From Candidatus Microgenomatus sp. (GTDB taxonomy: Bacteria > Patescibacteriota > Microgenomatia > UBA8517), in NCBI GenBank assembly GCA_020724585.1, contig DYGS01000001.1, forward strand, positions 287,832 through 351,831: a stretch of DNA of 64,000 nucleotides, given 5' to 3'. A model generated the notes under the pieces. That model was given only the letters and a program-made list of their open reading frames with translations. It made no database searches and was not told the origin of the DNA. A program made the translations under genes and the position numbers. The first letter of the stretch is position 1. Each line of letters opens with the position of its first letter. This document shows positions 1 through 36,600 of this stretch, in pieces.

Positions 1-675
1 TGCTAAAAAGAGAAAATTAGATATTATCTGCGGCGGATTGCCGCTTGCACTTTGGGGCTGTGTGGCCCAAAAGACGCTTTCTCCCTTGCCAATTAAATAG
101 CCAAAACTGCCTGCAAAAAAACTAAAAATAGTTGCCCAAATTGATGCACTTTCACTTTTTGTTAATTTGTATGTTAGGAAGTAGGCTGAGGCACCAAATA
201 ATATACTGTAAAGAGTCGGAAAGATTCTAAAGTACAAATCAAGGTCAGAAAGATTAAAGTATTTACTAGCAACTGCCGGCAAAATATCAGAAAAGAAATG
301 GTAGTTGGTAAGCTTTTCCCCTGCCATAACTGGCATTTCGAAAGGATAGCCTTTTTTAATTTCATTCATCAGGGCAATATGCCAAGGGCCATCGTGGCCA
401 TGACTGCTGTAAAAAATGATATCTCCCCCTTCATTTATTGTTCCGCTTGGTGCAATTACTACCATTTGGCCGATTATTCCAATTGCAAAGACAATTATCA
501 TAATCAATGTTTGCAAATTAAATTTAATTTTTACGCTCTTAAGGTTTTTGTAAATATTTTTTTTACAGAAAAAAATGAGCAAAATAAATATCGGAATGAT
601 TAAAAAAGGAATATTTAGTACAATAAGAATGTATGAAATCAGAGTTGATAAGGAAAATGAAAATATCAAGCTCAT
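1..675 (-). CDS. Integral membrane protein; 5' end in window, runs off the left edge (partial). N-terminus uncertain: ATG at 675, 690, 501 or 465
   Basis: Hand translation of the minus strand (codon positions congruent to 0 mod 3) has no stop from 744 down to position 1, far longer than chance in AT-rich DNA. Predicted TM helices and a loop 'FYSSHGHDGPWHIALMNEIKKGYPFEMP'. Possible RBS GGAAAAG 6 nt before the ATG at 675. Not in the ORF track because it is partial. Confidence 0.4.
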   Translation of the reverse strand, partial: MSLIFSFSLSTLISYILIVLNIPFLIIPIFILLIFFCKKNIYKNLKSVKIKFNLQTLIMIIVFAIGIIGQMVVIAPSGTINEGGDIIFYSSHGHDGPWHIALMNEIKKGYPFEMPVMAGEKLTNYHFFSDILPAVASKYFNLSDLDLYFRIFPTLYSILFGASAYFLTYKLTKSESASIWATIFSFFAGSFGYLIGKGESVFWATQPQSASGNPPQIISNFLFLA

Positions 676-2282
676 TAAAAGCTTTTCCATATCAAAAGTA
701 TATACTAATTTTATTTTGTATTCTTGGCTTTTTAGTAAGATTTAATAAAATTGAGAGTCTTCCAATGTATGGCGACGAATTAACTTTAGCCTACGATTCA
801 TATTCAATTTTAAAGACAGGGATGGATCAAACTGGTCAGTATCTTCCGTTAACTACAAAAATGGGGGCAGGCAGGCCTGCGGGTTATGTTTATGCAAGTT
901 TGCCGTTTATCGCCATCTTTGGGCCAACGGAAATTGGAATTAGGATGTTATCGCTACTTTCTGGAACTATCTTAATTATTGCTGTTTACTTCCTGGCGCT
1001 TAAAATTTTTGAAAATAACGAGAATAAAGCAAAGATTGCACTCTTTGCTTCTTTTTTGCAATCAATTTCTATTTGGGACATATCCCTTTCAAAGGGAGGT
1101 TTTGAGGCACATTTTGCGCTACTGCTTGCTGCAGTTGGTGTTTTAATGTTTTTATATAGAAGATATATCTTAACGGCCCTTTTGTGGGGTATAACCATAT
1201 TTACTTATCCTACTTTCAAGTTAACACTACCTCTAATTTTTATAGTACTTATAACAACATTCAAGAAAACCACGGGCGATAAGCCTGTGGATGAATTGAA
1301 CGCTGATATGTCATCCTCGTTTAGACGGATACCCCGCCAGTATGGCGGGGAGGATGTTATATTTTATGAGGGTTATAAGAATTTAATAATAAGTAAAAAA
1401 TTTTGGGTTTCCATTTTAGTTCTACTATTTTTTACAGGAGTTTCACTTTTTGAAACATCAAAAGGTTTATCCGAATCTAGATTTTTAAGCATCAGTATTC
1501 TAACTAATAAAGAGATAGAGCAGCGAATAATTCAAAAAATAAATAACCAAAGATTTTTGTCTCCAATGCCTGAGGTTGTTGATAAATTATTTTTTAATAA
1601 ACCATTCGAATACACAAGACTTTTAATTGATAATTATGTTGAGAATTTTAATTTTTCTTACCTTTTTTTAAGGGGAGATAGAAACCCAAGACATAATCCA
1701 ACAGAATTCGGCAGTCTGTATTTGATTGAATTTGTAACTATTCTGATTGGAATCACCTCCATTTATAAAAAAGATAGAAGGAATTTTATTTTTTTAGTTT
1801 TTTGGATATTAATAACTCCGCTTGCAACCATGCTGATGGGTCAAACCCATGCCCTAAGAAACGGTTTTATGCTGCCGCCATTAATATTAATATCAGCCTA
1901 TGGAATTTATAGTTTGAGGATGAAATCTCGATTTGTTGTCATATTATTTATATTGGTTCAATTTATGATAGGGATTTATTATATAAACTCTTACATACCG
2001 GTTAAATTTGCAGATTTTTGGTCAGCAGAGGCTAAAAATGCCACTATCTTGGCAAATCAAAGCCTTAACAAATATGACAAAATCGTAATCTCATCTAGAA
2101 TAAATGACATAGAGTATGCATATCCAGCATATTCAAAGATTGATCCATTTTTAGTTATATCGAACTATGGCAAATTTCCAAAGGTGTATGGTAGGGTGAT
2201 AATAGATGATGATTTAGAAAAATATAAATCTTTTGATAGTGTAGTAATAATAAGTGAGGACTCGATATTTAAGAAAAAATGA
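657..2282 (+). CDS. GT-C membrane glycosyltransferase, PMT/ArnT-like (GT39/83 family), paralog 1 of 4
   Basis: N-terminal TM helix then 'YGDELTLAYDSYSIL' (DE loop-1 motif) and multiple further TM segments. Aligns with the paralogs downstream. AAGGA RBS before the ATG at 657 (the track's 633 start is probably too early). Confidence 0.65.
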   Translation: MKISSSLKAFPYQKYILILFCILGFLVRFNKIESLPMYGDELTLAYDSYSILKTGMDQTGQYLPLTTKMGAGRPAGYVYASLPFIAIFGPTEIGIRMLSLLSGTILIIAVYFLALKIFENNENKAKIALFASFLQSISIWDISLSKGGFEAHFALLLAAVGVLMFLYRRYILTALLWGITIFTYPTFKLTLPLIFIVLITTFKKTTGDKPVDELNADMSSSFRRIPRQYGGEDVIFYEGYKNLIISKKFWVSILVLLFFTGVSLFETSKGLSESRFLSISILTNKEIEQRIIQKINNQRFLSPMPEVVDKLFFNKPFEYTRLLIDNYVENFNFSYLFLRGDRNPRHNPTEFGSLYLIEFVTILIGITSIYKKDRRNFIFLVFWILITPLATMLMGQTHALRNGFMLPPLILISAYGIYSLRMKSRFVVILFILVQFMIGIYYINSYIPVKFADFWSAEAKNATILANQSLNKYDKIVISSRINDIEYAYPAYSKIDPFLVISNYGKFPKVYGRVIIDDDLEKYKSFDSVVIISEDSIFKKK

Positions 2283-3922
2283 AATTTAAAGAAAATCTAT
2301 TAATATTCTTAGTCTTATTACTATCGTTAATAATTCGTGTTTATGGCATCGGTAAAATTCCGCCATCTCTAAACTGGGATGAAGTTTCAATTGCCTACAA
2401 TGCCTACTCAATTTTAAAAACAGGTCGTGACGAATGGGGAGAATTTTTACCTCTCCATTTTAGATCGTTTGGTGAATACAAGCTTCCTGTACAAATTTAT
2501 GCTTCAATTCCTGCTATTTATGTGTTTGGGCTTAATGAGTTTGGGGTTAGGATAACACCTGCAGTTTATGGTGTTTTAACAGTATTTTTACTTTATTTAT
2601 TGGTCCAAGAACTTTTTAAAAGAAATGAAATATCACTAATTAGTGCTTTTCTACTTGCAGTATCACCATGGCATATACAACTAACGAGAGGTTCGTTTGA
2701 ATCTTCATTTTCTCTTTTTTGGTTTTTACTTGGACTACTACTTTTGTATAAAGGATTTAAGAACAAAAAATTAATTTTGTTTTCAATGGTTCCTTTCGCT
2801 ATCTCTGTTTATACCTATAATACCGCCAGGGTTTTTGTACCGATGTTTTTGTTTGTTTATTATCTTTTAAATTTAAAGTTCTTTTTAAAAAATATTAAGT
2901 ATTTTATTTTCAGTACTTTAATTTTTGTTGTTCTAATGATTCCACTTATTCCTTTTGTTTTGTCGGGTGAAGCTTCGGCAAGATATAAATTGGTTAGTAT
3001 CACAGACGATGCTGGCCTTATTCCAAGAATTGAGGAGAGAAGAAATAATTCTAATTTGCCGGAAATTGTAACTAAACTAATTCACAATAGATACACCTAC
3101 AACACATATTATTTTAGTCTTAACTATTTGTCTCATTTTACTCCTGATTTTCTATTTATAAGCGGTGCAGGCCACAGGCAACACCATGTCCAAGGGGTTG
3201 GCCAGTTGTATTGGATCCAAGCTCCATTTTTAATTTATGGACTTTATCTTCTTCTAAAGAAGAAAGAAGAAAATTTAAAGATGGTTATTCCCTGGATGCT
3301 TCTTGCTTATGTCCCAGTTTCAATGACTAACGATAGTATTCCTAATGCCTTAAGGACATTAATTTCTGTCCCTACCTACCAAATATTAACAGCTTACGGC
3401 ATGTTTTATTTCTTTAGCATCTTAAAAAATCGAAGAGTAAAAATATTAGCAGTTTTACTGTCGATATTGATGTTTGTAATTAATTTTGGAATTTATTTAA
3501 ATAATTATTTTGTAAAATATCCAGTTAACTATTCACGCGACTGGCAGTATGGGTATAAAGAAGTTGTTGACTATATTAAAGAAAATCAGGATAAATATGA
3601 TTTAATTGTTTTTAGCAGACATTATGGTGAACCACACATTTTTACACTTTTCTATTTAAATTATGATCCGCAAAAGTTTCAAAATTCTTCCAACCTAGAA
3701 AGATTTGAAACATACGATTGGGTCAGGGTTTTAAGATTTGATAAATATTATTTCCCAGATTTAGGAGATGAAGGTACAAAGTATAATGATATTGTTAAAG
3801 AGAATCCAGACAAAAAGATATTATTCATTGGTAAAAGTGGTGATTTCCCAGAGAATGTAAAGATATTAGAAAGGATTAACTTTTTAAACAATGAACCAGC
3901 ATTCGAAATTGTCGAAAATTGA
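2279..3922 (+). CDS. GT-C membrane glycosyltransferase, PMT/ArnT-like, paralog 2
   Basis: 'SLNWDEVSIAYNAYSILKTGRDEWGEFLPLHFRSFGEYKLPV' closely matches paralogs 3 and 4. ATGA start/stop overlap with the upstream gene. Confidence 0.7.
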   Translation: MKFKENLLIFLVLLLSLIIRVYGIGKIPPSLNWDEVSIAYNAYSILKTGRDEWGEFLPLHFRSFGEYKLPVQIYASIPAIYVFGLNEFGVRITPAVYGVLTVFLLYLLVQELFKRNEISLISAFLLAVSPWHIQLTRGSFESSFSLFWFLLGLLLLYKGFKNKKLILFSMVPFAISVYTYNTARVFVPMFLFVYYLLNLKFFLKNIKYFIFSTLIFVVLMIPLIPFVLSGEASARYKLVSITDDAGLIPRIEERRNNSNLPEIVTKLIHNRYTYNTYYFSLNYLSHFTPDFLFISGAGHRQHHVQGVGQLYWIQAPFLIYGLYLLLKKKEENLKMVIPWMLLAYVPVSMTNDSIPNALRTLISVPTYQILTAYGMFYFFSILKNRRVKILAVLLSILMFVINFGIYLNNYFVKYPVNYSRDWQYGYKEVVDYIKENQDKYDLIVFSRHYGEPHIFTLFYLNYDPQKFQNSSNLERFETYDWVRVLRFDKYYFPDLGDEGTKYNDIVKENPDKKILFIGKSGDFPENVKILERINFLNNEPAFEIVEN

Positions 3923-3924
3923 AT

Positions 3925-4566
3925 ATGAAAATTTTTGAAATATACAAAAAATTTGGCATACCACCTAACTTGCAACAGCATATGATTTTGGTTGCCGGAG
4001 TTGCAGAATTCATTGCTAGAAACTGGAAAAATGGCCGAATCGATAAAAACAAATTAATAAAGGCTTCATTAGTACATGACTTGGGTAATATAGTAAAGTT
4101 TAATTTTGATAAATACCCCGAATTTCTGGGGGATGAAGTAAAAAATATTAATTATTGGAAAGAGAAACAAGAAGAAATTATTAATAAATATGGTAGGGAT
4201 GACCATGAGGTTACACAAAGAATGTTAAATGAAATAGGATTAGATAGAGAGTCAATCGAAGCCGTTTCAGCTAAGAGTTTTGCAAACTCAATTGAAACAG
4301 CAAATTCAAACAATTGGTATTTAAAAATACTTTTATATTCAGACATGAGGGTGTTACCATTTGGTGTATGCACCATAGAAGAGCGATTGGAGGATATTAT
4401 GAAAAGAATGCCCCAATATTATACAAGACCAAATATTAACGATTTATTAAATGCATGTAGACAGGTGGAGTCAGAAATACAACAAAATATGAGTTGTGCT
4501 ATTGCAGAAATTAATCAACAAAATATAAATAAATCAAATAAAGAATTTATGGAAATGGAAATATGA
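3925..4566 (+). CDS. HD-domain phosphohydrolase-like protein
   Basis: 'HMILVAGVAEFIA...LVHDLGN' matches the H...HD metal-binding signature. The track start 3919 is TTG, so the in-frame ATG at 3925 is used. Confidence 0.5.
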   Translation: MKIFEIYKKFGIPPNLQQHMILVAGVAEFIARNWKNGRIDKNKLIKASLVHDLGNIVKFNFDKYPEFLGDEVKNINYWKEKQEEIINKYGRDDHEVTQRMLNEIGLDRESIEAVSAKSFANSIETANSNNWYLKILLYSDMRVLPFGVCTIEERLEDIMKRMPQYYTRPNINDLLNACRQVESEIQQNMSCAIAEINQQNINKSNKEFMEMEI

Positions 4567-5918
4567 AAAAATTAACCAACTTTTTTAAAAGTAATATAGT
4601 TTTGGTTTTAATTTGTCTTTTATTTTTAGTAACTAGAATTTATAGAGTTGACTCAATACCGGAATCCGTTTATTGGGATGAGGCATCAATTGGATATAAT
4701 GCTTATAGTATATTGTTGACAGGAAAAGATGAGTGGGGAGAATTTTTACCACTTCACTTCAGAGCCTTTGGTGAATTTAAATTACCTGTTTATATTTATT
4801 CAGTAGTTATATCTGAATTCTTTTTTGGATTAACAAATTTTGCTATAAGGCTACCTGCAATAATATTTGGTTTACTTTCCGTAATAGGAATATATTTTGT
4901 CACATTAAGACTTACTAATAATCGTACACTTTCGCTTTTAAGTTCTTTTACTTTTTCTATTACTCCTTGGTTTTTTATATTCTCACGGACAGGTTATGAG
5001 GCAACAGCAGGTTTAGCATTTTTTATATGGTCTTTGTATTTTTTGATTTTATCTTTTCAAAATTACAAATTATTAATACTGTCAACAATGTTATTCATTG
5101 TATCGATGTATAGTTATAACAGTTTTAGAATATTATCACCATTAATTTTGGGACCATTTCTAATATACTTTTTACTAAAAAAGAAATTTGTACATGTTTT
5201 AATACCTATTATTTTTATACTTTTAAGTATATTACCGATATATAAGCTATATAGTAAAGACTCGGGACTGGCCAGATTTAACACTGTTGGATCAAATAAT
5301 TATATAAGTAATTTTTTAAAAAACTTCTCACCTACATATTTATTTTTAGAAGGAGATATTAATCCAAGAAGCCAAGTACCAAAGCACGGCCAAGTCTATT
5401 ATTTAGATAGTTTATTTATAATTTTGGGGGTTTTATATATCTTAAAAACTAAAAACCTAAAACTATATTTTATATTAATGTTCCTTTTGTTAGCTCCGAT
5501 ACCAGCAAGTATTACTAAAGAAAATCCACACGCATTGCGTGCTATTTTAACGAGCCCAATACTTTCAGTCATATCTGCAATGGGAATATATTTTGTTTCA
5601 AAAAACAATAGATTAATATTGGTATTTATATCAGTATTGTATTTGTTGTTTTTTGGAAATTATTTTTATAGATTCATTAATGAATACAATAATATTTCTT
5701 CAAGTGCGTGGCAGTTAGAATATAAAGAAATATTTAAAAATCAAAAAAGTGGATGTATATCAGATGAATTTGCACAGCCATATATATTTGCACTTTACTA
5801 TAATAAATTTGATCCAAATGAATTTGTTACAACTAAAAAGTTAAATCCTGTTTCCGATTGGGGTTTTTCTACAGTCAAATCTTTTGGCAATTTTGAATTT
5901 AAAAAAGAGTGCAGATGA
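4563..5918 (+). CDS. GT-C membrane glycosyltransferase, PMT/ArnT-like, paralog 3
   Basis: 'SVYWDEASIGYNAYSILLTGKDEWGEFLPLHFRAFGEFKLPV'. ATGA overlap with the HD gene. Confidence 0.7.
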   Translation: MKKLTNFFKSNIVLVLICLLFLVTRIYRVDSIPESVYWDEASIGYNAYSILLTGKDEWGEFLPLHFRAFGEFKLPVYIYSVVISEFFFGLTNFAIRLPAIIFGLLSVIGIYFVTLRLTNNRTLSLLSSFTFSITPWFFIFSRTGYEATAGLAFFIWSLYFLILSFQNYKLLILSTMLFIVSMYSYNSFRILSPLILGPFLIYFLLKKKFVHVLIPIIFILLSILPIYKLYSKDSGLARFNTVGSNNYISNFLKNFSPTYLFLEGDINPRSQVPKHGQVYYLDSLFIILGVLYILKTKNLKLYFILMFLLLAPIPASITKENPHALRAILTSPILSVISAMGIYFVSKNNRLILVFISVLYLLFFGNYFYRFINEYNNISSSAWQLEYKEIFKNQKSGCISDEFAQPYIFALYYNKFDPNEFVTTKKLNPVSDWGFSTVKSFGNFEFKKECR

Positions 5919-7540
5919 GGAAAATAATAATATATCTATCACTAGCAGTTATTGTTGGCATCGCCGCTTTTTTCAGACTCTATAATGTTTCAACTAATCC
6001 GCCATCATTAACTTGGGATGAGGCTGCCGTTGGATATAATGCATATACAATTTTAAATTGGGGAAAAGATGAATGGGGTAATAACTATCCATTATTTTTT
6101 AAATCATTTGGTGATGATAAAAATCCAATTCATATTTATTTAACAATTCCATTTATTGCATGTTTTGGTTTAAATGATTTTGCAGTAAGGCTGCCGGCAG
6201 CTATTTTTGGGGTACTTAATGTTTTAATAATATTTTTTGTTGCCAGACAATTAACTAAAAGTAATATAATTTCGCTTTTTTCTAGTTTATTTCTGGCAAT
6301 CTCTGCTTATAACATTCAATTTTCCAGATTTAATCATGAACTTAATTTTGCGATATTCTTCTTTCTTTTGGGCCTATACTTTTTCTTAACGGCGGTAAAT
6401 AGCGATAAAAAATATTTATTGCCGCTTTCTTTTATGTCCTTTGGTTTGGATTTATTTACATATCCAAGTGCAAAGGTGGTAACACCAATACTTATATTTT
6501 TTTTAATTTTATTAAACATTAAAAAACTTTTAAAAAATATAAAGATTTTTGCAATTAGTATTTCTGTTTATCTATTCTTTGTTGGAACAATTATTGTAAA
6601 TCCCGAGCTTTTAGGAACTGCAAGACTTGAACAAAATCAAATAAAAGAGGAGCTAATTATCAATACTAATTTATATCAAAAAACTAATAGTCTTTTATTG
6701 GGTAAGGCAGAAATAGTTTTTGAAAGATATTTAAAATATTATCAAAGTGACTTTTTATATTTAACTGGAGATAAAAATCCCAGACATTCAGTACAAGCCT
6801 TTGGTACATTTTATAAATTCCAAATACCACTTTTAATTATTGGTCTTCTGTATTTAATATATGCAGTTATAAAATACAAAAACTACAATCTTCTTTTAAT
6901 ACTTCTTTGCTTTTTTATTGCTCCGCTTCCTGGTGCAGTTAGTAGTGATATGCCTCATGCATCAAGATCAATGTTTATTACATTTAGTCACTACTTACTC
7001 ATTGCTATGGGTGTATTTGCAATTGCTAGTTTGTTTAAAAATTTTTACTATAAAATTTTAGCTGTTGTAGTAATAGTTATTCTAACTGCATTCAACTTTT
7101 ATAACTACAATAATTATTACTATAGCGAATATAAAAATAAATATTCAGTTGAGTGGATTTATGGAATGAAAGAAATTATTGAAGAAGCCAAAAAAGATGA
7201 ATACTATCGTGTATATATTACAGACTCTAGAATGCAGCCCTATATCTTTGCCCTTTTTTACAATCAAACTAGCCTGCCTGATTTTCTCAAAACTGTTAAG
7301 TACAATGAAACACAAAGTAAACCACACAATTTAGTTAGAAGTTTTGATAAATATAGATTTGTTTGGAATGAATATGAAATTGTCCCAAATCAAAAAGTTT
7401 TGTTTGTTGTTAAACCTAGTGTTTATGATGGACTTTATTTTAAAAACGACTTTAAAGTGGTGAAAGTGATAAAATATCTAAACAATATAGATGCATTTTA
7501 TTTAATTACTGGAAAGGAAGAAATAAAAAATGAAGAATAA
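5915..7540 (+). CDS. GT-C membrane glycosyltransferase, PMT/ArnT-like, paralog 4
   Basis: 'SLTWDEAAVGYNAYTILNWGKDEWGNNYPLFFKSFGDDKNPI'. ATG at 5915 overlaps the upstream stop (ATGA); the track's 5909 start is GTG. Confidence 0.7.
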   Translation: MRKIIIYLSLAVIVGIAAFFRLYNVSTNPPSLTWDEAAVGYNAYTILNWGKDEWGNNYPLFFKSFGDDKNPIHIYLTIPFIACFGLNDFAVRLPAAIFGVLNVLIIFFVARQLTKSNIISLFSSLFLAISAYNIQFSRFNHELNFAIFFFLLGLYFFLTAVNSDKKYLLPLSFMSFGLDLFTYPSAKVVTPILIFFLILLNIKKLLKNIKIFAISISVYLFFVGTIIVNPELLGTARLEQNQIKEELIINTNLYQKTNSLLLGKAEIVFERYLKYYQSDFLYLTGDKNPRHSVQAFGTFYKFQIPLLIIGLLYLIYAVIKYKNYNLLLILLCFFIAPLPGAVSSDMPHASRSMFITFSHYLLIAMGVFAIASLFKNFYYKILAVVVIVILTAFNFYNYNNYYYSEYKNKYSVEWIYGMKEIIEEAKKDEYYRVYITDSRMQPYIFALFYNQTSLPDFLKTVKYNETQSKPHNLVRSFDKYRFVWNEYEIVPNQKVLFVVKPSVYDGLYFKNDFKVVKVIKYLNNIDAFYLITGKEEIKNEE

Positions 7541-8405
7541 AAAGGTTTTCTTGTCTGTTGTTTTGGCAACAAGAAATGAGGAAGAAAATATATCCAGATG
7601 CCTTGAGTCAGTTAAGGATATTGCGAGTGAGATAATAATTTACGATGAATATTCAAAGGATGCCACAGTTTCTATTGCAAAAAAATATGGTGCAAAAGTT
7701 TTTCTCGAACCCCATCATGACATTTTTCATATAACCAAGCAAAAGGCTATAGATAAAGCGACTGGAGAATGGATATTGCAGCTAGATGCAGATGAAGTTG
7801 TAACACCAGAACTCTCTCGAGAGATTCTTAAAATTACAAATTCTAAATTACAAATTACAAATACTAACCTTTTATTTTTAAGACATCAACAACTTATAGA
7901 AGCACGAGATGGCAAGATTGGCAAGGATAGTGGAGAGGTTATTGCTTATTTTATACCTAGAAAAAACATGTTTTTAGGTAAACCCTTAATACATGCAGGC
8001 GTATATCCCGATGGTGTTATCAGATTATTTAAAAAAGGTTATGCCAAGTGGCCATGCAAATCTGTACATGAACAAATGGAGATAAAAGGTAGAGTAGGTT
8101 GGCTTAATAATGATTTACTGCACTTCGATTCACCAACATTAAAGCGTTACTTCATGAGATTAAATAGATATACAGACCTTCAAGCTCAAGAACTCAAAAC
8201 AAAAAAGGTTTCAAAGGGCCTTTTTCGGTTTTTACAATATACTATATACTATCCTCTATATACTTTTGCCAATTTATATATAAGACATAAAGGTTTTTTA
8301 GATGGTGTAAATGGTTTTCTTTGGAGTTTGTTTTCCTCTTGGCACTTCCCAATTGCTTATTTTAAATACTTAACAGATCCTTCCAGCAAGAAGGCGTATC
8401 CGTAG
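7530..8405 (+). CDS. Glycosyltransferase family 2 (GT-A fold)
   Basis: 'VVLATRNEEENI...LQLDADEVV' (DxD); typical GT2 N-terminal domain. Confidence 0.7.
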   Translation: MKNKKVFLSVVLATRNEEENISRCLESVKDIASEIIIYDEYSKDATVSIAKKYGAKVFLEPHHDIFHITKQKAIDKATGEWILQLDADEVVTPELSREILKITNSKLQITNTNLLFLRHQQLIEARDGKIGKDSGEVIAYFIPRKNMFLGKPLIHAGVYPDGVIRLFKKGYAKWPCKSVHEQMEIKGRVGWLNNDLLHFDSPTLKRYFMRLNRYTDLQAQELKTKKVSKGLFRFLQYTIYYPLYTFANLYIRHKGFLDGVNGFLWSLFSSWHFPIAYFKYLTDPSSKKAYP

Positions 8406-12160: not shown

Positions 12161-13195
12161 ATGTCAATAAAAACAATTAAAGTATATTTCTCCTCAGGTG
12201 TTCATAGTGGTCTTGATGCTACCCGTGGAATTGGTGCAAATACCAGTGAAATGGTAAAGGCTTTAGATAAAACAGCTGGAATTACTATAGTAAATAACCC
12301 AAATGAGGCCAATGTTGTGCATTACACAAAATTTAATCCATTTTTCATTAGTATTCCATTTTTTAAACCGACTAATCAGAAGTGGTTTCTAACAATTCAT
12401 GATTTGATCCCACTTATATATCCAAAACATTATCCATCGGGAGTCAAAGGCTATATAAAATTTTTAATTAACAAATTTTTAGTTTGGAAAAACATTGATG
12501 TAATCGTTACAATTTCTGAAACTTCAAAAAAAGATATTTGTAGATTTTTAGGTGTAAAACCTGAAATAGTGAAAGTTATCTATATTGCGCCTAAAGAGTC
12601 GATCAAAAAACTAAAAGGCGGTTCGTGGGAAGAAGAAATAAGAAAAAAATTTAATTTACCTGATAAATTTATTCTTTTTAATCATGGACTAAATTACAAT
12701 AAGAACCTAAAAACTCTAATTGAGGCATGTAACAGATTAAAATTTCCTCTAGTTGCAATCGATGAAGATACAAAAAATGTCGATAAATTAGATTTAAATC
12801 ACCCTGAATTAAGACATTTGAAAGGTGTTGATTTTTCAAAAGTAATAAGACCAGGTTATGTTTCTGATGAAGACTTAAACAAACTTTTTAATATGGCCTA
12901 TCTTTGTGTTCAACCCTCTTACTATGAAGGTTTTGGTATGCCACCAATAGAAGCAATGACGGTTGGTTGCCCTGTTATTTGTTCAAAAACCCAGGCTTTG
13001 GTAGAAGTTTGTGGAGATGCTTGTTTGTATTTTGATCCCAATAGCCCTGATGATTTAGTTGAAAAAATAAAATTGATTCAAGAAGATACAAAGTTGAGGC
13101 AGGAATTAATAAAAAGAGGTTATAAGCAGGCTAAAAAATATTCTTGGGAAAAAACTGCCAGAGAAACAATATCTTTATATGAAAAAGTTGTATAA
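12161..13195 (+). CDS. Glycosyltransferase family 4 (GT-B, group 1)
   Basis: 'EGFGMPPIEAMTVGCPVICSKTQALVEVCGDACLYFDP' is the GT4 E-x7-E region. Confidence 0.75.
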   Translation: MSIKTIKVYFSSGVHSGLDATRGIGANTSEMVKALDKTAGITIVNNPNEANVVHYTKFNPFFISIPFFKPTNQKWFLTIHDLIPLIYPKHYPSGVKGYIKFLINKFLVWKNIDVIVTISETSKKDICRFLGVKPEIVKVIYIAPKESIKKLKGGSWEEEIRKKFNLPDKFILFNHGLNYNKNLKTLIEACNRLKFPLVAIDEDTKNVDKLDLNHPELRHLKGVDFSKVIRPGYVSDEDLNKLFNMAYLCVQPSYYEGFGMPPIEAMTVGCPVICSKTQALVEVCGDACLYFDPNSPDDLVEKIKLIQEDTKLRQELIKRGYKQAKKYSWEKTARETISLYEKVV

Positions 13196-14330
13196 CTCTT
13201 TAGTATTTAAATTCATAATTTGGAGGGTTGTCTTAATTTTTGCGGCATTTTTGGCAATAACATACATTCCAATCTTTAGTGATAATTTTTTCGGCGGCAA
13301 GTATATTAATTATTCCCAAAATCCACTTCTCTGGACTTGGGCCAATTTCGACGGAGAACACTATTTATCAATTGCACAAAATGGGTATAAAAGTTTACAG
13401 CAGGCTTTTTTCCCTTTGTATCCATTATTTATTCGTTTTTTTGCATTTGGAGGAACAAGTGAAAATTTGATGCCATTTTTGGTGAGCGGACTCATTTTAT
13501 CTAATCTATTTTTTTTAGTTTCTCTATTTTTTTTAGAAAAAGTAATAAATTTAGATTACGATCAAAAGACCTCAAATTTAGCTGTATTATTACTTTTATT
13601 TTTCCCTACATCTTTTTTCTTCGGTGGCATATACACAGAATCGTTATTTTTTTTATTATCCCTAGCTACATACTATTTCTATAGAAAAGAAAGATATTTT
13701 CTATCTTTAGTTTTTGGAATATTAACCACACTAACGAGATTTTTGGGCCTGTTTGTTATATTGATGATTGTTATTGACCTGATTGTTAAGAAGACAAGTT
13801 TAATTAAAATAATTCAAAATAAAATCTATTTAGTTTTTCTTTCTGGAATAGGACTATTTGGATATATGTATTATTGTTTTGTTAAGTGGGGTGATGCCCT
13901 CGCTTTTTTTAATTTACAAACTCTATCAGGCGAACAAAGATCGACAAATTTAATATTACTGCCGCAAGTCTTTTATAGATATTTTGCAAAAATAATACCT
14001 AACTTGAATTTTGATTATTTTCCATTTGTTTTTACTATCTTTTTAGAAATCTCGATAGCAACTCTTTTTTTGATACTACTCATTTTTTCGTTCAAAAAGG
14101 TTCGTTGGGATTATTGGTTTTATATGTTGTCGAGTTATATGATTCCAACGCTAACCGGAAGTTTTTCTTCACTTCCGAGATATGTTTTGGTCATTTTTCC
14201 AACATATATTGTGATGGCGAGTTACCTAAAAAGTAAAAATAAATTTCTGACTTTCTGTATTTTGGCAGTTTTAGCTATAATTAGCATTATTGCCCAGTCT
14301 CTTTTTGTCAGAGGATATTTTATAAGCTAG
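13179..14330 (+). CDS. GT-C-like membrane mannosyltransferase (PIG-V/GT87-like)
   Basis: 'FDGEHYLSIAQNGYKSLQQAFFPLYPLFI' motif typical of PIG-V/DUF2029-type polyprenol-phosphate-sugar-dependent transferases; many TM helices. Confidence 0.5.
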   Translation: MKKLYNSLVFKFIIWRVVLIFAAFLAITYIPIFSDNFFGGKYINYSQNPLLWTWANFDGEHYLSIAQNGYKSLQQAFFPLYPLFIRFFAFGGTSENLMPFLVSGLILSNLFFLVSLFFLEKVINLDYDQKTSNLAVLLLLFFPTSFFFGGIYTESLFFLLSLATYYFYRKERYFLSLVFGILTTLTRFLGLFVILMIVIDLIVKKTSLIKIIQNKIYLVFLSGIGLFGYMYYCFVKWGDALAFFNLQTLSGEQRSTNLILLPQVFYRYFAKIIPNLNFDYFPFVFTIFLEISIATLFLILLIFSFKKVRWDYWFYMLSSYMIPTLTGSFSSLPRYVLVIFPTYIVMASYLKSKNKFLTFCILAVLAIISIIAQSLFVRGYFIS

Positions 14331-14336
14331 ATATAT

Positions 14337-15008
14337 ATGAAAATTGCAATCGTATTGCCTGTTTTTAATGAAGAGAAACATATAGAGAATGTATTAAAGA
14401 ATCTTGCCAAAAGTAAGCTTACTATTATTGCAGTTGATGATGGAAGCAAAGACATGAGTTCTCAAAAACTCAAAGGAAAAATTCCAAAAATCAAAGTTCT
14501 AACCCACAAGGTTAATTTAGGCAAGGGTTCAGCAATGAAGACAGGTTGCGAATATGCATTTAATAATGGTTATGATGCAGTAATTTTTATGGATTCAGAC
14601 GGTCAACATTCTATAAATGATTTGCCTAAATTTATAGAAAAACTTGAAACAGAAAAATTTGATATTGTTTTTGGTTCAAGAAATTTAGGTTTAGATATGC
14701 CTTTAATTAGATTTCTAGGTAATAAGTTTGCTTCAGTTTTTGTCAATTTGTTATTTGGAATTTATGTTTCAGATCTATTAAGCGGTTATAGAGCTATAAC
14801 TAAAAAAGCTTACCAAAAAATAAAATGGGAGTCTCAAGGATATGGCGTTGAAACTGAAATGGTAATAAAGACAAAGCAGGAAAAACTTAAATACACCGAG
14901 GTGCCAATTGAAACTATATATTTAGATGGATTTAAAGGGGTTTCGATACTAGATGCTTTTGGAATACTTCTTAATGTAGTTTATTGGAGATTAAAAAGAT
15001 ATAATTGA
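14337..15008 (+). CDS. GT2 polyprenol-phosphate glycosyltransferase (DPM1/GtrB-like)
   Basis: 'IAIVLPVFNEEKHI...AVDDGSKD...DSDGQH'. Confidence 0.7.
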   Translation: MKIAIVLPVFNEEKHIENVLKNLAKSKLTIIAVDDGSKDMSSQKLKGKIPKIKVLTHKVNLGKGSAMKTGCEYAFNNGYDAVIFMDSDGQHSINDLPKFIEKLETEKFDIVFGSRNLGLDMPLIRFLGNKFASVFVNLLFGIYVSDLLSGYRAITKKAYQKIKWESQGYGVETEMVIKTKQEKLKYTEVPIETIYLDGFKGVSILDAFGILLNVVYWRLKRYN

Positions 15009-15013
15009 TAATT

Positions 15014-15346
15014 ATGATACTAGGTTTACAAATAACAGGAATATTATTTTCGTTAGCAATGATTTATTTTGCTCTGCTTCACTACAAGAAGGATAATTTA
15101 AATAGTTTAGAGATTGCTTCATGGATAACGATTTGGGTTCTTGTTATTTTAATTGTAATTTTTCCTGAAATAGTTAGGGCTTATGCAGCTAGTATTGCAG
15201 TATCAAGAGTTCTAGATCTTTTAATTGGCGGTGCTTTTATAGTTATATTTATAATGGTTGGGAGTGCCTATATTAGAGTTAATAAATTAGAAAAAAAACT
15301 TGAAGATTTGGTTAGAAAGTTGGCCATTAAGGATAAAAAAGCGTAA
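15014..15346 (+). CDS. Small membrane protein (DUF2304-like) coupled to the GT2 gene
   Basis: Three TM helices plus a C-terminal coiled-coil 'LEKKLEDLVRKLA'. The ATG at 15014 follows the upstream stop; the track start 15005 is TTG. Confidence 0.45.
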   Translation: MILGLQITGILFSLAMIYFALLHYKKDNLNSLEIASWITIWVLVILIVIFPEIVRAYAASIAVSRVLDLLIGGAFIVIFIMVGSAYIRVNKLEKKLEDLVRKLAIKDKKA

Positions 15347-32018: not shown

Positions 32019-32058
32019 ATAAGTGTAATTTTAATCAATTTGGGCTAAAATTAAATAG

Positions 32059-32886: not shown

Positions 32887-32891
32887 AAACT

Positions 32892-35381: not shown

Positions 35382-36600
35382 TTTTACAGCTTGGCCCGAA
35401 ATGCTTGCCTGGCCTTATTTAATGTTAAATGGTTTTTTACCATATAGAGATATTGCTATTGCACATAATCCACTGCTTCTATTCGATTTAGCCATATTTT
35501 TTAAATTATTTGGAATTGGCGTAGTTCAACTTAAAATTTATACATGGATTTTAATTTTATTAAATTTATATCTTACTTATTTTGTAGCTAATAAGTTCTG
35601 GAACAAAAAAATAGCTATTCTATCTACTATATTCTATATACTATATACTATTATCTTTGAAGGTAATGGTTTATGGTTTGATTTAGCATTGACTCCATTT
35701 GCGCTACTACTATTTTATTTTGTCAGAACGAAAAATTATTTATGGGCGGGCATTATATTTGCGTTAGGATTTTTAACCAAGCAAACATTTATATATTTTG
35801 CGATTCCTATTGGAATCACAACAGTACAGAGTACAAAGTACATAGTACAGAGACTAAAACAACTTGTTTTTGGTGCTGGAATAATATTTTTATTTTCTGC
35901 AATTACTCTTTATATACTTGGTATTTTGGATGATTATTATAGTTGGGCAGTAAAGTTTGGAATATTATATTTACCTAGTGCAGTTGGGCAAATTAGTTTA
36001 CCCAGTTTAAAGCAATTTTTGTTTGCCATGTCTCCATTTTTGATATCAGTACTTAGTACAGAGTACTTAGTACTAAGTTTTATGATCGCTGGGATGCTGG
36101 GAGTTTATCCTAGATGGGAATTATTTCATTTTCAACCCGCACTACCATTTCTGGCTATAACACTATCAAGTTTTATTTTTTCAAAAAGAAACATCGTTTT
36201 AAAGGTTACATTTATCTTTTTAGCATTTGTATTTTTAGCATTCGGATTTAAGAGGCAAATTGGTAATAATACGCGTTTTTATGAAGAAGATGTAATTAAA
36301 ATAACTCAAAAAATCAAAGATTCAAAAACTGAAAGTTTATATGTTATTAATTATTGGGATAGTTTATATGCATTAACGGATACTTTGCCATCAAAACCAC
36401 TGATTCCTTACATCCCGTGGTATTTGAACTATAATGATAATTTGGAATTAGTAATTAATAATTTAATAATTAATATGCCAGAGGTAATTGTAATTGGAGA
36501 AAGACAAAACAACTATCCTAAACTGTATAATTTTGTAGATAAATTTTATAGCTGTAGCATAGTTACAAAAAGAGTTGAAATTTGTTACAAAAATAATTAA
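35371..36600 (+). CDS. Polytopic membrane protein (hypothetical, GT-C-like)
   Basis: AAAGGAAC RBS; 409 aa, hydrophobic throughout. Confidence 0.5.
   Translation: MFINFTAWPEMLAWPYLMLNGFLPYRDIAIAHNPLLLFDLAIFFKLFGIGVVQLKIYTWILILLNLYLTYFVANKFWNKKIAILSTIFYILYTIIFEGNGLWFDLALTPFALLLFYFVRTKNYLWAGIIFALGFLTKQTFIYFAIPIGITTVQSTKYIVQRLKQLVFGAGIIFLFSAITLYILGILDDYYSWAVKFGILYLPSAVGQISLPSLKQFLFAMSPFLISVLSTEYLVLSFMIAGMLGVYPRWELFHFQPALPFLAITLSSFIFSKRNIVLKVTFIFLAFVFLAFGFKRQIGNNTRFYEEDVIKITQKIKDSKTESLYVINYWDSLYALTDTLPSKPLIPYIPWYLNYNDNLELVINNLIINMPEVIVIGERQNNYPKLYNFVDKFYSCSIVTKRVEICYKNN

What the first reader, a model, noticed from the sequence alone, without database searches (positions are those of the whole stretch)
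657..7540. Four tandem PMT/ArnT-like GT-C paralogs in one translationally coupled operon, interrupted by an HD-domain gene
The genes at 657, 2279, 4563 and 5915 encode paralogous 450–550-aa GT-C membrane glycosyltransferases. They share near-identical loop-1 sequence ('[LY]xWDE[AV]S[IV][AG]YNAYSIL..G.DEWGEFLPLHFR.FGE.KLPV') but have diverged C-terminal halves, so they probably have distinct acceptor or donor specificities. All junctions are ATGA or short overlaps. An HD phosphohydrolase-like gene is wedged between paralogs 2 and 3. This looks like a diversifying gene-duplication array for surface protein or glycan mannosylation-type modification.
Basis: seen in the sequence. Interest (0 to 1): 0.5.

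Follow-up and report, generated by a model that had tools for sequence, protein, structure and literature searches.

The report
Ancient GT-C glycosyltransferase operon, CPR bacterium
A tiny-genome (Woesebacteria-like) bacterium carries four old, distinct copies of a membrane sugar-transferring enzyme in one operon, part of a very large cell-surface sugar-coat gene island; the arrangement is real and conserved in relatives, but it belongs to a known enzyme class and its sugar and target are still unknown.

Summary
Window 657-8405 (+) is one tightly packed operon, G1-G2-HD-G3-G4-GT2a. It is bounded by a divergent membrane-protein gene and a convergent AbiEii gene.

This is neither an assembly duplication nor a recent one. 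Each paralog has its own orthologs, in the same order, in related Woesebacteria. Across Microgenomates, 1-7 such genes cluster with a conserved GT2-GT4-PIG-V-like trio and with DPM1/PpgS-type polyprenyl-phosphate-sugar synthases. G2 is strongly conserved (up to 77%). The G4 slot is variable (42-60%).

The HD gene encodes a cytoplasmic HD-superfamily phosphohydrolase with weak YfbR-like similarity. It sits in GT-C arrays only in two HD subclades (8 of 80 HD loci) and in none of 41 GT-C loci from other species.

Best reading: four non-redundant enzymes glycosylate an envelope glycopolymer or surface proteins outside the membrane, using polyprenyl-phosphate sugars, within a glycan island of at least 70 kb. 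The sugar and the acceptor are unknown. This is a new member of a known kind, of moderate-to-low interest.

The parts
1..501 (-). 5' part of a divergently transcribed 550-aa multi-pass membrane protein ('m550', no Pfam family). It marks the upstream boundary of the operon. The + strand ORF at 298-603 overlaps it and is probably spurious.
   Evidence: Orthologs sit at the same place in L053, L134 and L135.
502..656 (+). Intergenic region that should hold the operon promoter and the G1 ribosome-binding site (AAGGAAA before ATG 657).
   Evidence: The sigma-70 consensus scan gave nothing above chance.
657..2282 (+). G1: the most divergent GT-C paralog (541 aa from ATG 657; 549 aa from ATG 633). 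It has YGDE in loop 1 and an insertion of about 45 aa after TM7.
   Evidence: BLASTP to G2 E 4e-45. PMT_2 sub-threshold at 16.8 bits. Orthologs are 41-53% identical in L012, L053, L134 and L135. Forms its own clade in the tree.
2279..3922 (+). G2: the conserved core GT-C paralog (547 aa). It has D34-E35 in loop 1, an E66-x-K68-x-P70 motif that aligns with ArnT's E-K-P-P, and a YS[RK]DWQYG motif after the last TM helix.
3925..4566 (+). HD-domain phosphohydrolase (213 aa). Soluble, with no TM segment, and the H19...H51-D52...D140 residues are intact.
   Evidence: Pfam HD 25.8 bits. In the family alignment, 41/42 members hit HD, 18 hit HD_3 and 17 hit YfbR-like. Invariant residues. AF2 pLDDT 93.9. 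Only weak fold matches to HD proteins. No PADLOC hit. No hydrophobic peak.
4563..5918 (+). G3: a GT-C paralog (451 aa) that lacks the last ~95 residues of the C-terminal domain present in G2 and G4. Its loop 1 is 77% identical to G2's.
   Evidence: Orthologs are 61-66% identical in close relatives and 42-51% in L010-L014.
5915..7540 (+). G4: a GT-C paralog (541 aa) in the variable slot of the array.
   Evidence: PMT_2 54.2 bits. It is 42-44% identical to the L051 and L053 counterparts, which are 69% identical to each other, while the flanking genes are 65-75% identical. The best relative anywhere is 60% identical.
7530..8405 (+). GT2a: a soluble GT-A/GT2 glycosyltransferase (291 aa) and the last gene of the operon. 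It is the conserved follower of GT-C arrays across Microgenomates.
   Evidence: Pfam Glycos_transf_2 67.8 bits. It is 42-73% identical to the gene following the array in most related loci. The N-terminal 100 aa resemble GmaR and SunS.
12161..14330 (+). GT4a (12161-13195) and a PIG-V-like GT-C (13179-14330). Elsewhere these directly follow GT2a. Here they are separated from it by inserted genes: the AbiEii/DUF6922 pair, an SDR and a VKOR-DHODH fusion.
14337..15346 (+). GT2b (14337-15008), a candidate polyprenyl-phosphate-sugar synthase, plus the small membrane protein DUF2304 (15014-15346). Together they are the likely maker of the lipid-linked sugar donor.
   Evidence: NCBIfam PpgS hit over the full length at 107 bits, plus AglJ, PgfS and Dol-P-hexose transferase. 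PDB sequence hits to Dol-P-Man synthase 5mlz, GtrB and ArnC. DUF2304. The same pair is in L053.
35371..36600 (+). A further PMT_2-type GT-C gene in the same island.
   Evidence: PMT_2 32.6 bits.
39553..40863 (+). A further PMT_2-type GT-C gene in the same island.
   Evidence: PMT_2 28.1 bits; weak BLASTP matches to G3 and G4.

Best explanation
Window 657-8405 is a six-gene operon (G1-G2-HD-G3-G4-GT2a) in a Woesebacteria-like member of the Microgenomates (CPR/Patescibacteria). It lies inside a cell-envelope glycan island of at least 70 kb.

G1-G4 are four anciently separated, individually orthologous GT-C membrane glycosyltransferases of the PMT_2 type. The mechanism below is inferred from the family. 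Each enzyme takes a single sugar from a polyprenyl-phosphate carrier. That carrier is charged on the cytoplasmic face by a DPM1/PpgS/GtrB-type GT2 (GT2b with DUF2304, 6 kb downstream). The sugar is then transferred on the outer face of the membrane, using the loop-1 Asp-Glu as the catalytic acid/base.

Because the four copies are old, kept in a fixed order and differ outside the catalytic loop, they most likely perform four non-redundant steps, meaning different linkages, sugars or acceptor positions. The target would be an extracytoplasmic acceptor. My preferred acceptor is an envelope glycopolymer or lipoglycan primed by the conserved GT2a-GT4a-PIG-V-like partners, as in mycobacterial LM/LAM/arabinogalactan assembly. 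Ser/Thr-rich surface proteins are the main alternative.

G2 is the conserved core step. G4 is a variable, possibly strain-specific, terminal step.

The HD gene encodes a cytoplasmic metal-dependent phosphohydrolase with weak YfbR-like similarity. It was inserted between G2 and G3 in one sublineage and is co-expressed there. It is not a general component of the system.
For: Shown by tool results:
- Full-length paralogy.
- PMT_2/PMT membership of G2-G4.
- D-E invariant in all four paralogs and in 40 homologs, lying at the N-terminus of the helix that follows TM1.
- The ArnT E-K-P-P region aligns with G2 E66-x-K68-x-P70.
- Overlapping stop and start codons, with divergent and convergent neighbours, define the operon.
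- Each paralog clusters with its own orthologs, and the order G1-G2-G3-G4-GT2a recurs in L135, and with extras in L053 and L134. G2-G3-G4-GT2a-GT4a-PIGV recurs in L010, L013 and L014.
- 27 of 29 related 20-kb loci hold at least 2 such genes.
- GT2b is a full-length homolog of PpgS, AglJ, Dol-P-Man synthase, GtrB and ArnC, and is next to DUF2304.
- 10 of 10 GT2 genes lying directly upstream of GT-C arrays in other Microgenomates are of the same type.
- G2 is up to 77% identical to orthologs, against 60% at most for G4, and the window's G4 is an outlier between conserved flanks.
- HD: homologs at 46-50% identity lie in unrelated contexts. HD is absent from 41 GT-C loci and from L053, L134 and L135. 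It is GT-C-linked in only 8 of 80 HD loci. It has no TM segment, weak YfbR-like/HD_3 signals and no defence-system match.

From the literature:
- GT-A Und-P-sugar synthases feed GT-C enzymes that glycosylate polysaccharides or Ser/Thr-rich proteins outside the membrane (PMC12041528).
- PpgS, the small membrane protein Rv3632 and the GT-C Rv3779 form such a system, and LM/LAM is built by GT-C enzymes from polyprenyl-P-mannose (PMC3485146).
Against: - Nothing here identifies the sugar, the lipid carrier or the acceptor.
- Fold and sequence place G2 equally far from OST, PMT, ArnT and ALG enzymes, so the choice of acceptor is inference from neighbours only.
- GT2b is not in the operon and is separated from it by unrelated genes.
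- No GtrA-type flippase was identified.
- GT2a's nearest solved relatives by sequence, over the N-terminal 100 aa only, are the protein/peptide glycosyltransferases GmaR and SunS. That leans towards protein glycosylation.
- G1 is below the PMT_2 threshold.
- The membrane orientation of loop 1 is assumed from the family, not tested.
- The HD gene has kept its catalytic residues and its tight junctions in two HD subclades, all of whose sampled members are GT-C-linked. A functional tie in that lineage therefore cannot be excluded.
- Co-transcription is inferred from the overlaps, not shown.
Confidence: 0.65

Rival explanations
1. Protein O-glycosylation machinery (PMT/Pgf-like). The four GT-C enzymes transfer sugars from polyprenyl-phosphate carriers to Ser/Thr-rich regions of secreted or surface proteins such as pilins, S-layer proteins or membrane-anchored proteins. 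Different paralogs would serve different sugars or protein classes.
For: - G2 passes Pfam's PMT (PF02366) threshold, and G3 and G4 miss it by less than 1 bit.
- NCBI names the orthologs 'glycosyltransferase family 39'.
- The loop-1 D-E matches the PMT-type acidic motif (from my own knowledge of PMT).
- The streptococcal Pgf operon also pairs a GT2 with two GT-C paralogs for protein O-glycosylation (PMC12041528).
- GT2a resembles GmaR and SunS at its N-terminus.
- A conserved W-x-Y-G motif follows the last TM helix, at the position where OSTs carry WWDYG (the comparison is from memory).
Against: - The NCBIfam Pmt equivalog is failed (17 vs 800 bits).
- No PMT_4TMC or MIR domain is detected.
- The fold search ranks ArnT and ALG12/9 equally high.
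- The conserved neighbours (GT4, PIG-V-like, GT87, PTPS_related/YfhO-like, Wzx, Wzy_C, Bac_transf) look like glycopolymer or lipoglycan assembly.
- No candidate acceptor protein was identified.
Confidence: 0.3
2. One reading: a young, actively diversifying duplication array in which copies arise and diverge within this lineage to explore new specificities.
For: - Copy number differs among relatives. Extra GT-C genes lie between G1 and G2 in L053 and L134, G4 is missing in L011 and L095, and loci hold 1-7 genes.
- The G4 slot is much more variable than its flanks.
Against: - The paralogs are only 25-37% identical to each other, yet 58-77% (G2), 42-66% (G3) and 41-53% (G1) identical to orthologs in other species.
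- Each forms its own clade.
- The gene order is conserved.
- No pair of near-identical copies exists in the window.
Confidence: 0.1
3. The HD protein is a functional component of the glycosylation operon in this lineage. For example, it might hydrolyse the nucleoside di- or monophosphate by-products of donor synthesis, or a phosphorylated sugar or lipid intermediate, and so tune donor supply.
For: - HD lies between G2 and G3 in several lineages although HD identity has dropped to 46-49% there.
- H19, H51-D52 and D140 are retained and the junctions stay tight (L051/L054, L093, L095, L096).
- All sampled members of HD clades A and B are GT-C-linked.
- GT-C is the single most recurrent neighbour family of this HD family.
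Against: - 72 of 80 HD-family loci, and 4 of 4 long-contig homologs, have no GT-C neighbour.
- Equally close relatives of the array (L053, L134, L135; G2 74-77%) lack HD, as do all 41 other GT-C loci.
- The protein is soluble and cytoplasmic, whereas GT-C chemistry takes place outside the membrane.
- Vertical inheritance of one neutral insertion explains the pattern.
Confidence: 0.2
4. ArnT-type lipid modification. The enzymes would decorate a membrane lipid or glycolipid head group, as ArnT does with lipid A, rather than a polymer or a protein.
For: - ArnT is the only solved structure found by sequence (E 0.004-0.008).
- ArnT gives the best reciprocal Foldseek TM-score, 0.56/0.57.
- JGI names the orthologs 'ArnT-like'.
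Against: - The ArnT equivalog is failed (14.5-16.9 vs 567 bits).
- No arnA/B/D-type genes appear among the Pfam annotations of the window and its flanks.
- CPR bacteria of this group are not known to make lipid A (my own knowledge).
- Four conserved paralogs plus many other GT-C genes suggest something more complex than a single head-group modification.
Confidence: 0.07
5. Assembly or annotation artefact, meaning collapsed or duplicated repeats, or pseudogenes.
For: None found.
Against: - The same gene order is found in independent JGI and Logan assemblies, and the proteins are also held by NCBI on a 744,514-bp contig.
- The copies are only about 33% identical.
- All ORFs are intact and carry conserved catalytic residues.
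- Orthologous arrays exist in dozens of genomes.
Confidence: 0.01

Closest known systems
ArnT (GT83; lipid A 4-amino-4-deoxy-L-arabinose transferase; PDB 5ezm/5f15)
   Same: - Same Pfam family (PMT_2) and GT-C fold.
- Similar size (~550 aa): an N-terminal multi-TM module plus a small C-terminal soluble domain.
- The E-K-P-P region aligns with G2's E-x-K-x-P.
- ArnT uses a polyprenyl-phosphate monosaccharide made by a GT2 (ArnC), and GT2b here is distantly ArnC-like.
   Different: - Only 10-12% identity in the structural alignments.
- Fails the ArnT equivalog model.
- No Ara4N biosynthesis genes nearby.
- Four paralogs here rather than one enzyme.
- The host is a CPR bacterium not expected to have lipid A.
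Protein O-mannosyltransferases (GT39; yeast Pmt1/2/4 and actinobacterial Pmt)
   Same: - Pfam PMT N-terminal domain hit (G2).
- Acidic D-E motif in loop 1.
- The orthologs are annotated GT39.
   Different: - No PMT_4TMC or MIR domains.
- Fails the Pmt equivalog model.
- A protein acceptor is not shown.
- The gene neighbourhood looks like glycopolymer assembly.
Mycobacterial GT-C pathways: PpgS (Rv3631) + Rv3632 + Rv3779, and the LM/LAM/arabinogalactan GT-Cs including the tandem embC-embA-embB paralogs
   Same: - A GT2 polyprenyl-P-sugar synthase next to a small membrane protein (GT2b + DUF2304).
- Many GT-C enzymes, including GT87 types, that would act outside the membrane.
- GT4 enzymes for cytoplasmic priming.
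- Tandem GT-C paralogs with distinct roles.
(the emb operon is from my own knowledge)
   Different: - Different GT-C families (PMT_2 here, against Arabinose_trans/Emb and GT87 there).
- GT2b reaches only 107 bits against the 370-bit PpgS equivalog cut-off.
- Unrelated phylum with a genome of roughly 0.7 Mb (contig length).
- The product is unknown.
Streptococcal Pgf (PgfS-PgfM1-PgfE-PgfM2) and GtrB/PgtC2 protein O-glycosylation systems
   Same: - One operon combines a GT-A Und-P-sugar synthase with two or more GT-C paralogs that act extracellularly.
- GT2b hits the PgfS model.
   Different: - The Pgf and PgtC GT-Cs belong to the YfhO family, not PMT_2.
- In the window the synthase is outside the operon.
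- No epimerase lies in the operon.
- Acceptors are unknown.
Oligosaccharyltransferases STT3/AglB/PglB
   Same: - Same GT-C class, with a soluble domain after the last TM helix.
- A conserved aromatic W-x-Y-G motif at the start of that domain.
   Different: - No STT3 Pfam hit and no WWDYG motif as such.
- Much smaller C-terminal domain.
- OSTs use polyprenyl-diphosphate oligosaccharides.

Membership tests
GT-C fold glycosyltransferase superfamily | Multi-pass N-terminal transmembrane module with the GT-C architecture. | tested here: met
   [not shown]
GT-C fold glycosyltransferase superfamily | Conserved acidic catalytic residue(s) in the first extracytoplasmic loop. | tested here: met
   D34-E35 (G2 numbering) are invariant in the 4 paralogs and in 40 aligned sequences, and lie at the start of the helix after TM1. 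The sidedness of the loop is assumed, not tested.
GT-C fold glycosyltransferase superfamily | Lipid-phosphate-linked sugar donor. | not testable with these tools
   Context only. A DPM1/PpgS/GtrB/ArnC-like GT2 lies in the island, and similar genes lie directly upstream of arrays in 10 of 10 tested relatives.
Pfam PMT_2 (PF13231) | Score at or above the gathering threshold (26.1 bits). | tested here: met
   G2 47.2, G3 34.3 and G4 54.2 bits. G1 reaches only 16.8 bits, so it does not meet this test and is a member by paralogy only.
GT39 protein O-mannosyltransferase (PMT/Pmt) | PMT N-terminal domain (PF02366) at or above 22.7 bits. | tested here: inconclusive
   G2 34.9 bits (passes), G3 22.5 and G4 21.7 (just below), G1 no hit.
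GT39 protein O-mannosyltransferase (PMT/Pmt) | C-terminal PMT_4TMC domain (all PMTs) and MIR domains (eukaryotic PMTs). | tested here: not met
   No such Pfam hit at E <= 0.01 for any paralog.
GT39 protein O-mannosyltransferase (PMT/Pmt) | NCBIfam equivalog NF058602 (cut-off 800 bits). | tested here: not met
   G4 reaches 17 bits; the others have no hit.
GT39 protein O-mannosyltransferase (PMT/Pmt) | Transfers mannose from polyprenyl-P-mannose to protein Ser/Thr. | not testable with these tools
   No biochemical data exist and no acceptor was identified.
ArnT (GT83) | NCBIfam equivalog NF009784 (cut-off 567 bits). | tested here: not met
   G2 16.9 and G3 14.5 bits.
ArnT (GT83) | Genomic association with Ara4N synthesis genes (arnA, arnB, arnD) and a lipid A acceptor. 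| tested here: not met
   No formyltransferase, aminotransferase or deformylase families appear among the Pfam annotations of the window and 8 kb upstream. The absence of lipid A in this group is from my own knowledge and was not tested.
Oligosaccharyltransferase (STT3/PglB/AglB) | STT3 family signature and the WWDYG motif. | tested here: not met
   No STT3 Pfam hit. Only a loosely similar DWQYG motif follows the last TM helix of G2, with W422 alone invariant among the paralogs.
Polyprenyl-phosphate glycosyltransferase (DPM1/GtrB/ArnC/PpgS type GT2), for GT2b at 14337-15008 | Full-length similarity to characterised members, plus partner architecture. | tested here: inconclusive
   The best NCBIfam hits are PpgS (107 bits, model positions 3-218 of 226), AglJ, PgfS and Dol-P-hexose transferase, all below their equivalog cut-offs. 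The best PDB sequence hits are Dol-P-Man synthase, GtrB and ArnC. A DUF2304 small membrane protein is adjacent, as Rv3632 is to PpgS.
HD-domain metal-dependent phosphohydrolase, for the ORF at 3925-4566 | H...HD...D metal-binding residues and the HD Pfam domain. | tested here: met
   PF01966 at 25.8 bits against a 22-bit cut-off. H19 is nearly invariant, and H51, D52 and D140 are invariant in 42 homologs. 41 of 42 members hit HD.
YfbR-like 5'-deoxynucleotidase | A significant match to PF12917 or HD_3 by the protein itself. | tested here: inconclusive
   The window protein scores HD_3 16.7 bits, below the 22.5-bit cut-off. 17 of 42 homologs match YfbR-like weakly. The fold search gives E > 0.1 for all HD structures.

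The most novel reading that the evidence does not exclude
Microgenomates, despite genomes of roughly 0.7 Mb, may build their surface coat largely outside the membrane with a conserved 'assembly line' of a dozen or more GT-C enzymes fed by polyprenyl-phosphate sugars. That would be a CPR counterpart of mycobacterial LM/LAM/arabinogalactan assembly. In this reading G2 is a near-universal core step and the G4 slot is a swappable terminal step that sets strain-specific surface identity, relevant to host attachment or phage recognition. In one sublineage a dedicated HD phosphohydrolase would have been recruited into the operon as a functional partner. A sub-variant is that G2, with its conserved DWQYG motif at the position of the OST WWDYG motif, is a peptide-recognising protein glycosyltransferase of a new GT-C family.
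Probability: 0.2. Interest if true: 0.55.

Novelty: new member of a known kind. Interest (0 to 1): 0.3.

Why it matters
CPR/Patescibacteria are mostly uncultured epibionts, and their surface must mediate attachment to hosts. Almost nothing is known about their envelope glycans.

This locus shows that a Woesebacteria-like organism devotes a very large share of a small genome to extracytoplasmic glycosylation. The 64-kb window and the 8 kb upstream hold at least 11 genes that pass the threshold of a GT-C-type Pfam family. The genes follow a conserved order, with one slow-evolving enzyme (G2) and one fast-changing slot (G4).

That gives concrete targets for heterologous reconstitution: GT2b with DUF2304 as the donor synthase, and G1-G4 as the transferases. 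It also offers a marker set (G2, GT2a, GT4a, PIG-V-like) for comparing surface-glycan potential across Microgenomates.

It does not reveal a new kind of system. Tandem GT-C paralogs and GT2/GT-C pairings are well known in Actinobacteria and Firmicutes.

Tried and rejected
- **Assembly duplication.** Rejected, because the locus appears in independent assemblies and the copies are only 33% identical.
- **Recent duplication.** Rejected by the ortholog clades and the conserved gene order.
- **HD function by structure.** The model is confident, but every PDB match has E > 0.1. The PDB sequence hits are spurious PPR repeats. There is no PADLOC hit.
- **HD as a conserved partner.** I first thought it absent from all relatives. 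A metagenome scan then showed it in GT-C arrays in 8 of 80 loci, in two HD clades. The conclusion was softened to 'lineage-restricted'.
- **One or two HD insertions.** A neighbour-joining tree cannot decide this. Clade B has a long branch, and its highest identities are to clade A.
- **Promoter and terminator scans.** They gave fewer promoter-like sites than shuffled sequence, and the only terminator-like sites lie inside genes.
- **Compositional signal for HD.** None. GC and GC3 of HD match G2.
- **tRNA and Rfam scans.** Nothing was found in the window.
- **Literature.** Searches found no paper on GT-C arrays in Woesebacteria or CPR in the held library.
- **Not used.** The 1.84-billion-protein representative search was not run, because family size would not change the verdict.

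Full report
**1. What is there**

The window is AT-rich (about 30% G+C). It holds no tRNA gene and no Rfam match at gathering thresholds. It comes from a 644-kb JGI metagenome contig (3300029893, Ga0246236_1000003). The same locus is present in an independent Logan assembly, and the same proteins are held by NCBI on a 744-kb contig.

On the + strand, one search lists:
- G1 633-2282, with a better-supported start at ATG 657, which is preceded by AAGGAAA
- G2 2279-3922
- an HD-domain ORF at 3919/3925-4566
- G3 4563-5918
- G4 5909/5915-7540
- a GT2 gene (GT2a) at 7530-8405

The junctions are as follows:
- G1/G2, HD/G3 and G3/G4 are ATGA overlaps.
- G4/GT2a overlaps by 11 nt.
- G2/HD is either a TTGA overlap or a 2-nt spacer. 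With the ATG at 3925, which homolog N-termini support, it is the spacer.

Upstream, a 550-aa membrane-protein gene is transcribed divergently and starts at window position 501. Downstream, an AbiEii toxin gene converges on the array. The unit is therefore a six-gene operon spanning 657-8405. Co-transcription is inferred from the overlaps. Consensus promoter and terminator scans were uninformative.

**2. Are the four genes really paralogs?**

Yes, over the whole length.
- BLASTP gives about 33% identity for G2/G3/G4 (E 1e-52 to 1e-83) and 24-26% for G1 against the rest (E 1e-21 to 1e-45).
- Identity is highest in loop 1: G2/G3 77%, G4 against either 58%, and G1 33-44%.
- Identity falls to 14-36% in the C-terminal soluble domain.

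G3 lacks the last ~95 residues found in G2 and G4.

G2, G3 and G4 exceed the Pfam PMT_2 threshold, and G2 also exceeds the PMT threshold. G1 is sub-threshold.

**3. Fold and catalytic features**

An AlphaFold2 model of G2, built from 40 sequences, is confident (pLDDT 86.6, pTM 0.87).
- Foldseek agrees. ArnT gives the best reciprocal TM-score, 0.56/0.57.
- By sequence, only ArnT is detectable in the PDB, and only marginally (E 0.004-0.008). That alignment pairs ArnT's E-K-P-P stretch with G2's E66-x-K68-x-P70.
- D34-E35 sit at the N-terminus of the helix that follows TM1. They are invariant in all four paralogs and in 40 homologs.

The GT-C superfamily assignment is therefore solid, but the fold does not discriminate between the PMT, ArnT, OST and ALG families. 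The NCBIfam equivalogs for Pmt and ArnT are clearly failed.

**4. Age of the duplication and comparison with relatives**

G2 has 1957 homologs at E < 1e-10. The top 120 are 64-77% identical. Several come from records named Woesebacteria or Microgenomates and are annotated 'glycosyltransferase family 39' or 'ArnT-like'.

A scan of one genome per species returned 41 loci, and I annotated their ORFs by BLASTP against the window's proteins. In a neighbour-joining tree, G1, G2, G3 and G4 each cluster with genes from other genomes, and G3 and G4 are sister clades.

The gene order is conserved:
- L135, a Woesebacteria GWC2_33_12-type contig: G1(48%)-G2(74%)-G3(66%)-G4(53%)-GT2a(71%).
- L053: G1(52%), an extra GT-C, G2(76.5%), G3(64.5%), G4(43%), GT2a(73%), then SDR, GT4a, PIG-V-like, an epimerase, GT2b and DUF2304.
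- L134: two extra GT-C genes and a 178-aa membrane ORF lie between G1 and G2.
- L010, L013 and L014: G2-G3-G4-GT2a-GT4a-PIGV.

Among 29 loci of at least 15 kb from across Microgenomates, 27 hold two or more PMT_2-type genes within ±10 kb. The range is 1-7, with tandem runs of up to 5. These loci come from records titled Levy-, Shapiro-, Chisholm-, Gottesman- and Beckwithbacteria, among others.

The array is therefore old, its members are individually orthologous, and copy number varies by gain and loss rather than by recent local duplication.

**5. One variable slot**

Identity matrices show that the window's G4 is an outlier. G4 of L053 and of L051 are 69% identical to each other, but each is only 42-44% identical to the window's G4. 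The flanking G3 (65%), GT2a (69-73%) and G2 (75%) are conserved.

The best G4 relative in 5.8 billion proteins is 60% identical, against 77% for G2. This is the one respect in which 'diversifying' is apt. The G4 position has either been replaced by a divergent allele or evolves much faster than its neighbours.

**6. The HD gene**

The protein is soluble, with no hydrophobic segment. It has the H...HD...D residues and passes the Pfam HD threshold. It belongs to a compact family of about 213 aa. Of the 42 aligned members, 41 hit HD, 18 hit HD_3 and 17 hit YfbR-like weakly.

Its confident model (pLDDT 93.9) resembles solved HD proteins only distantly, with all E > 0.1. It matches no defence-system model. 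Its G+C content is like that of its neighbours.

Evidence against a general link to GT-C genes:
- Homologs at 46-50% identity on long contigs lie among NUDIX, MazG, HIT, kinase and unrelated genes, never next to GT-C genes.
- None of the 41 GT-C loci contains an HD homolog, and neither do L053, L134 or L135.

Evidence that the link is not purely accidental: a metagenome scan for the HD family found GT-C neighbours in 8 of 80 loci.
- Five of them form a clade with the window's HD (56-77% identity). This clade includes L054, which carries HD-G3(65%)-G4(42%).
- Three form a second, long-branched clade (46-49%): L095 with G2(72%)-HD-G3(62%)-GT2a(67%), L096 and L093.
- All sampled members of these two clades are GT-C-linked and keep the catalytic residues.
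- GT-C is the most recurrent neighbour of the HD family, ahead of an HAD-like hydrolase (6 loci).

The simplest reading is one insertion in a Woesebacteria sublineage that was then inherited vertically as part of the operon. A functional tie within that lineage cannot be excluded, and I put it at about 0.2.

**7. Donor and partners**

The conserved followers of the arrays are GT2a, a GT4 (GT4a) and a PIG-V-like GT-C. In the window these are split apart by an AbiEii/DUF6922 pair, an SDR and a VKOR-DHODH fusion.

Next comes GT2b (14337-15008). Its best NCBIfam matches are PpgS (full length, 107 bits), AglJ, PgfS and Dol-P-hexose transferase. Its best PDB sequence matches are P. furiosus Dol-P-Man synthase, GtrB and ArnC. 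All of these charge a polyprenyl phosphate with a single sugar.

GT2b is followed by a DUF2304 small membrane protein. This echoes the mycobacterial pair PpgS/Rv3632, which feeds the GT-C enzyme Rv3779 (PMC3485146).

In other Microgenomates, a GT2 of this type lies immediately upstream of the first GT-C gene of the array. All 10 that I tested have AglJ, PpgS or Dol-P-hexose synthase as their best matches.

The general scheme, in which a GT-A enzyme makes Und-P-sugar and a GT-C enzyme transfers it outside the membrane to polysaccharides or Ser/Thr-rich proteins, is documented in streptococci. There the pgf operon also contains two GT-C paralogs (PMC12041528).

**8. Wider context**

The whole window is a glycan island. 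It contains:
- two more PMT_2 genes above threshold (35371-36600 and 39553-40863), and two below threshold (25177-26649 and 47391-48809)
- a Wzx-type flippase, a Wzy_C protein and a Bac_transf initiating transferase
- a mannose-1-phosphate guanylyltransferase-like NTP transferase
- many GT1, GT2 and GT4 genes

The island ends at recO, glyS and the dcw cluster. The 8 kb upstream of the window adds two complete PTPS_related/YfhO-like proteins plus a partial third, and two GT87 proteins.

This mixture of cytoplasmic GT4 enzymes with many extracytoplasmic GT-C enzymes resembles lipoglycan or arabinogalactan assembly in Actinobacteria. That is why I favour a glycopolymer or lipoglycan acceptor (about 0.45) over a protein acceptor (about 0.3). 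This preference rests on inference from neighbours only.

**9. Verdict**

These are GT-C paralogs in one operon with probably distinct specificities, but they are ancient and orthologous rather than an actively diversifying duplication. 'Mannosylation' is unproven, and the HD gene is a lineage-restricted insertion.
- By kind, this is a new and uncharacterised member of a known class. GT2/GT-C extracytoplasmic glycosylation and tandem GT-C paralogs are known, for example embCAB (my own knowledge).
- I found no paper describing these arrays in Woesebacteria or CPR in the held library.
- Interest is moderate to low. The points worth keeping are the sheer GT-C load of a small genome (contig 0.64-0.74 Mb), the conserved core (G2) against the variable slot (G4), and the unexplained persistence of the HD gene at one junction.

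Noticed in passing
window 10129-11670 (+): A 513-aa fusion of a VKOR domain (residues 8-130) with a dihydroorotate dehydrogenase (residues 198-497). The same fusion is present in L135 at 62.6% identity. Pairing a quinone-dependent thiol oxidoreductase with DHODH is unusual in a CPR genome.
   Followed up: no
window 8407-9322 (-): An AbiEii toxin gene plus a DUF6922 gene (its likely antitoxin partner) are inserted between GT2a and the rest of the conserved GT2a-GT4a-PIGV module. The pair is absent at this place in L010, L013 and L053. Only AbiEii matches PADLOC.
   Followed up: partly
window 3539-3553 (G2 residues 421-425): A conserved YS[RK]DWQYG[NY]K motif lies directly after the last TM helix of G2 orthologs, and W422 is invariant in all four paralogs. 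Its position recalls the WWDYG motif of oligosaccharyltransferases, a comparison I make from memory.
   Followed up: partly
window 5915-7540 (G4), compared with L051, L053, L134 and L135: The G4 slot is hypervariable between conserved flanks. At least two G4 'types' occur among genomes whose G2 is 74-77% identical: the window type, which is 53-60% identical to the L134 and L135 genes, and the L051/L053 type, which is 42-44% identical to the window but 69% identical within the pair.
   Followed up: yes
L054-L058 versus L093, L095 and L096: Two separate HD subclades, A and B, occupy GT-C arrays. Clade B sits at the same G2|G3 junction with only 46-49% identity to the window's HD, on a long branch. 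Whether this reflects one insertion or two is unresolved.
   Followed up: partly
L134 3922-4458: In a close relative, a different small gene (178 aa, hydrophobic, no Pfam family) is wedged inside the GT-C array at another junction. Small inserted genes in these arrays are therefore not unique to the HD case.
   Followed up: no
window 35371-36600, 39553-40863, 25177-26649 and 47391-48809: Four further PMT_2-like membrane proteins (two above and two below Pfam's threshold) are scattered through the same island. Several multi-pass ORFs have no family at all: 17682-19322, 19258-20352, 20343-21653, 21658-22587, 27598-28932 and 37491-38729.
   Followed up: partly
window 30240-35381: An asparagine-synthase-like amidotransferase (minus strand, 30240-32018) and a P-type cation ATPase (32892-35381) sit in the middle of the glycan island.
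   Followed up: no
window 7530-8405 (GT2a): The closest solved relatives by sequence are GmaR (a flagellin O-GlcNAc transferase) and the peptide S-glycosyltransferases SunS and ThuS, over the N-terminal ~100 residues only. The C-terminal half has no detectable relative.
   Followed up: partly
L010, L012, L013, L017 and many others (titles): Many TPA metagenome-assembled genomes carrying these typical Microgenomates loci are titled 'uncultured Gammaproteobacteria' or 'Pseudomonadales' in the public records. This looks like a labelling error.
   Followed up: no
window 298-603 (+): This 101-aa ORF overlaps the 5' end of the minus-strand membrane-protein gene (1-501) and is probably not a gene. 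JGI called no gene there.
   Followed up: partly
window 15402-16154 and 26674-27210: A DUF3800 protein and a SocA_Panacea (antitoxin-type) domain protein are interspersed among the glycosyltransferase genes. Neither matches PADLOC.
   Followed up: partly
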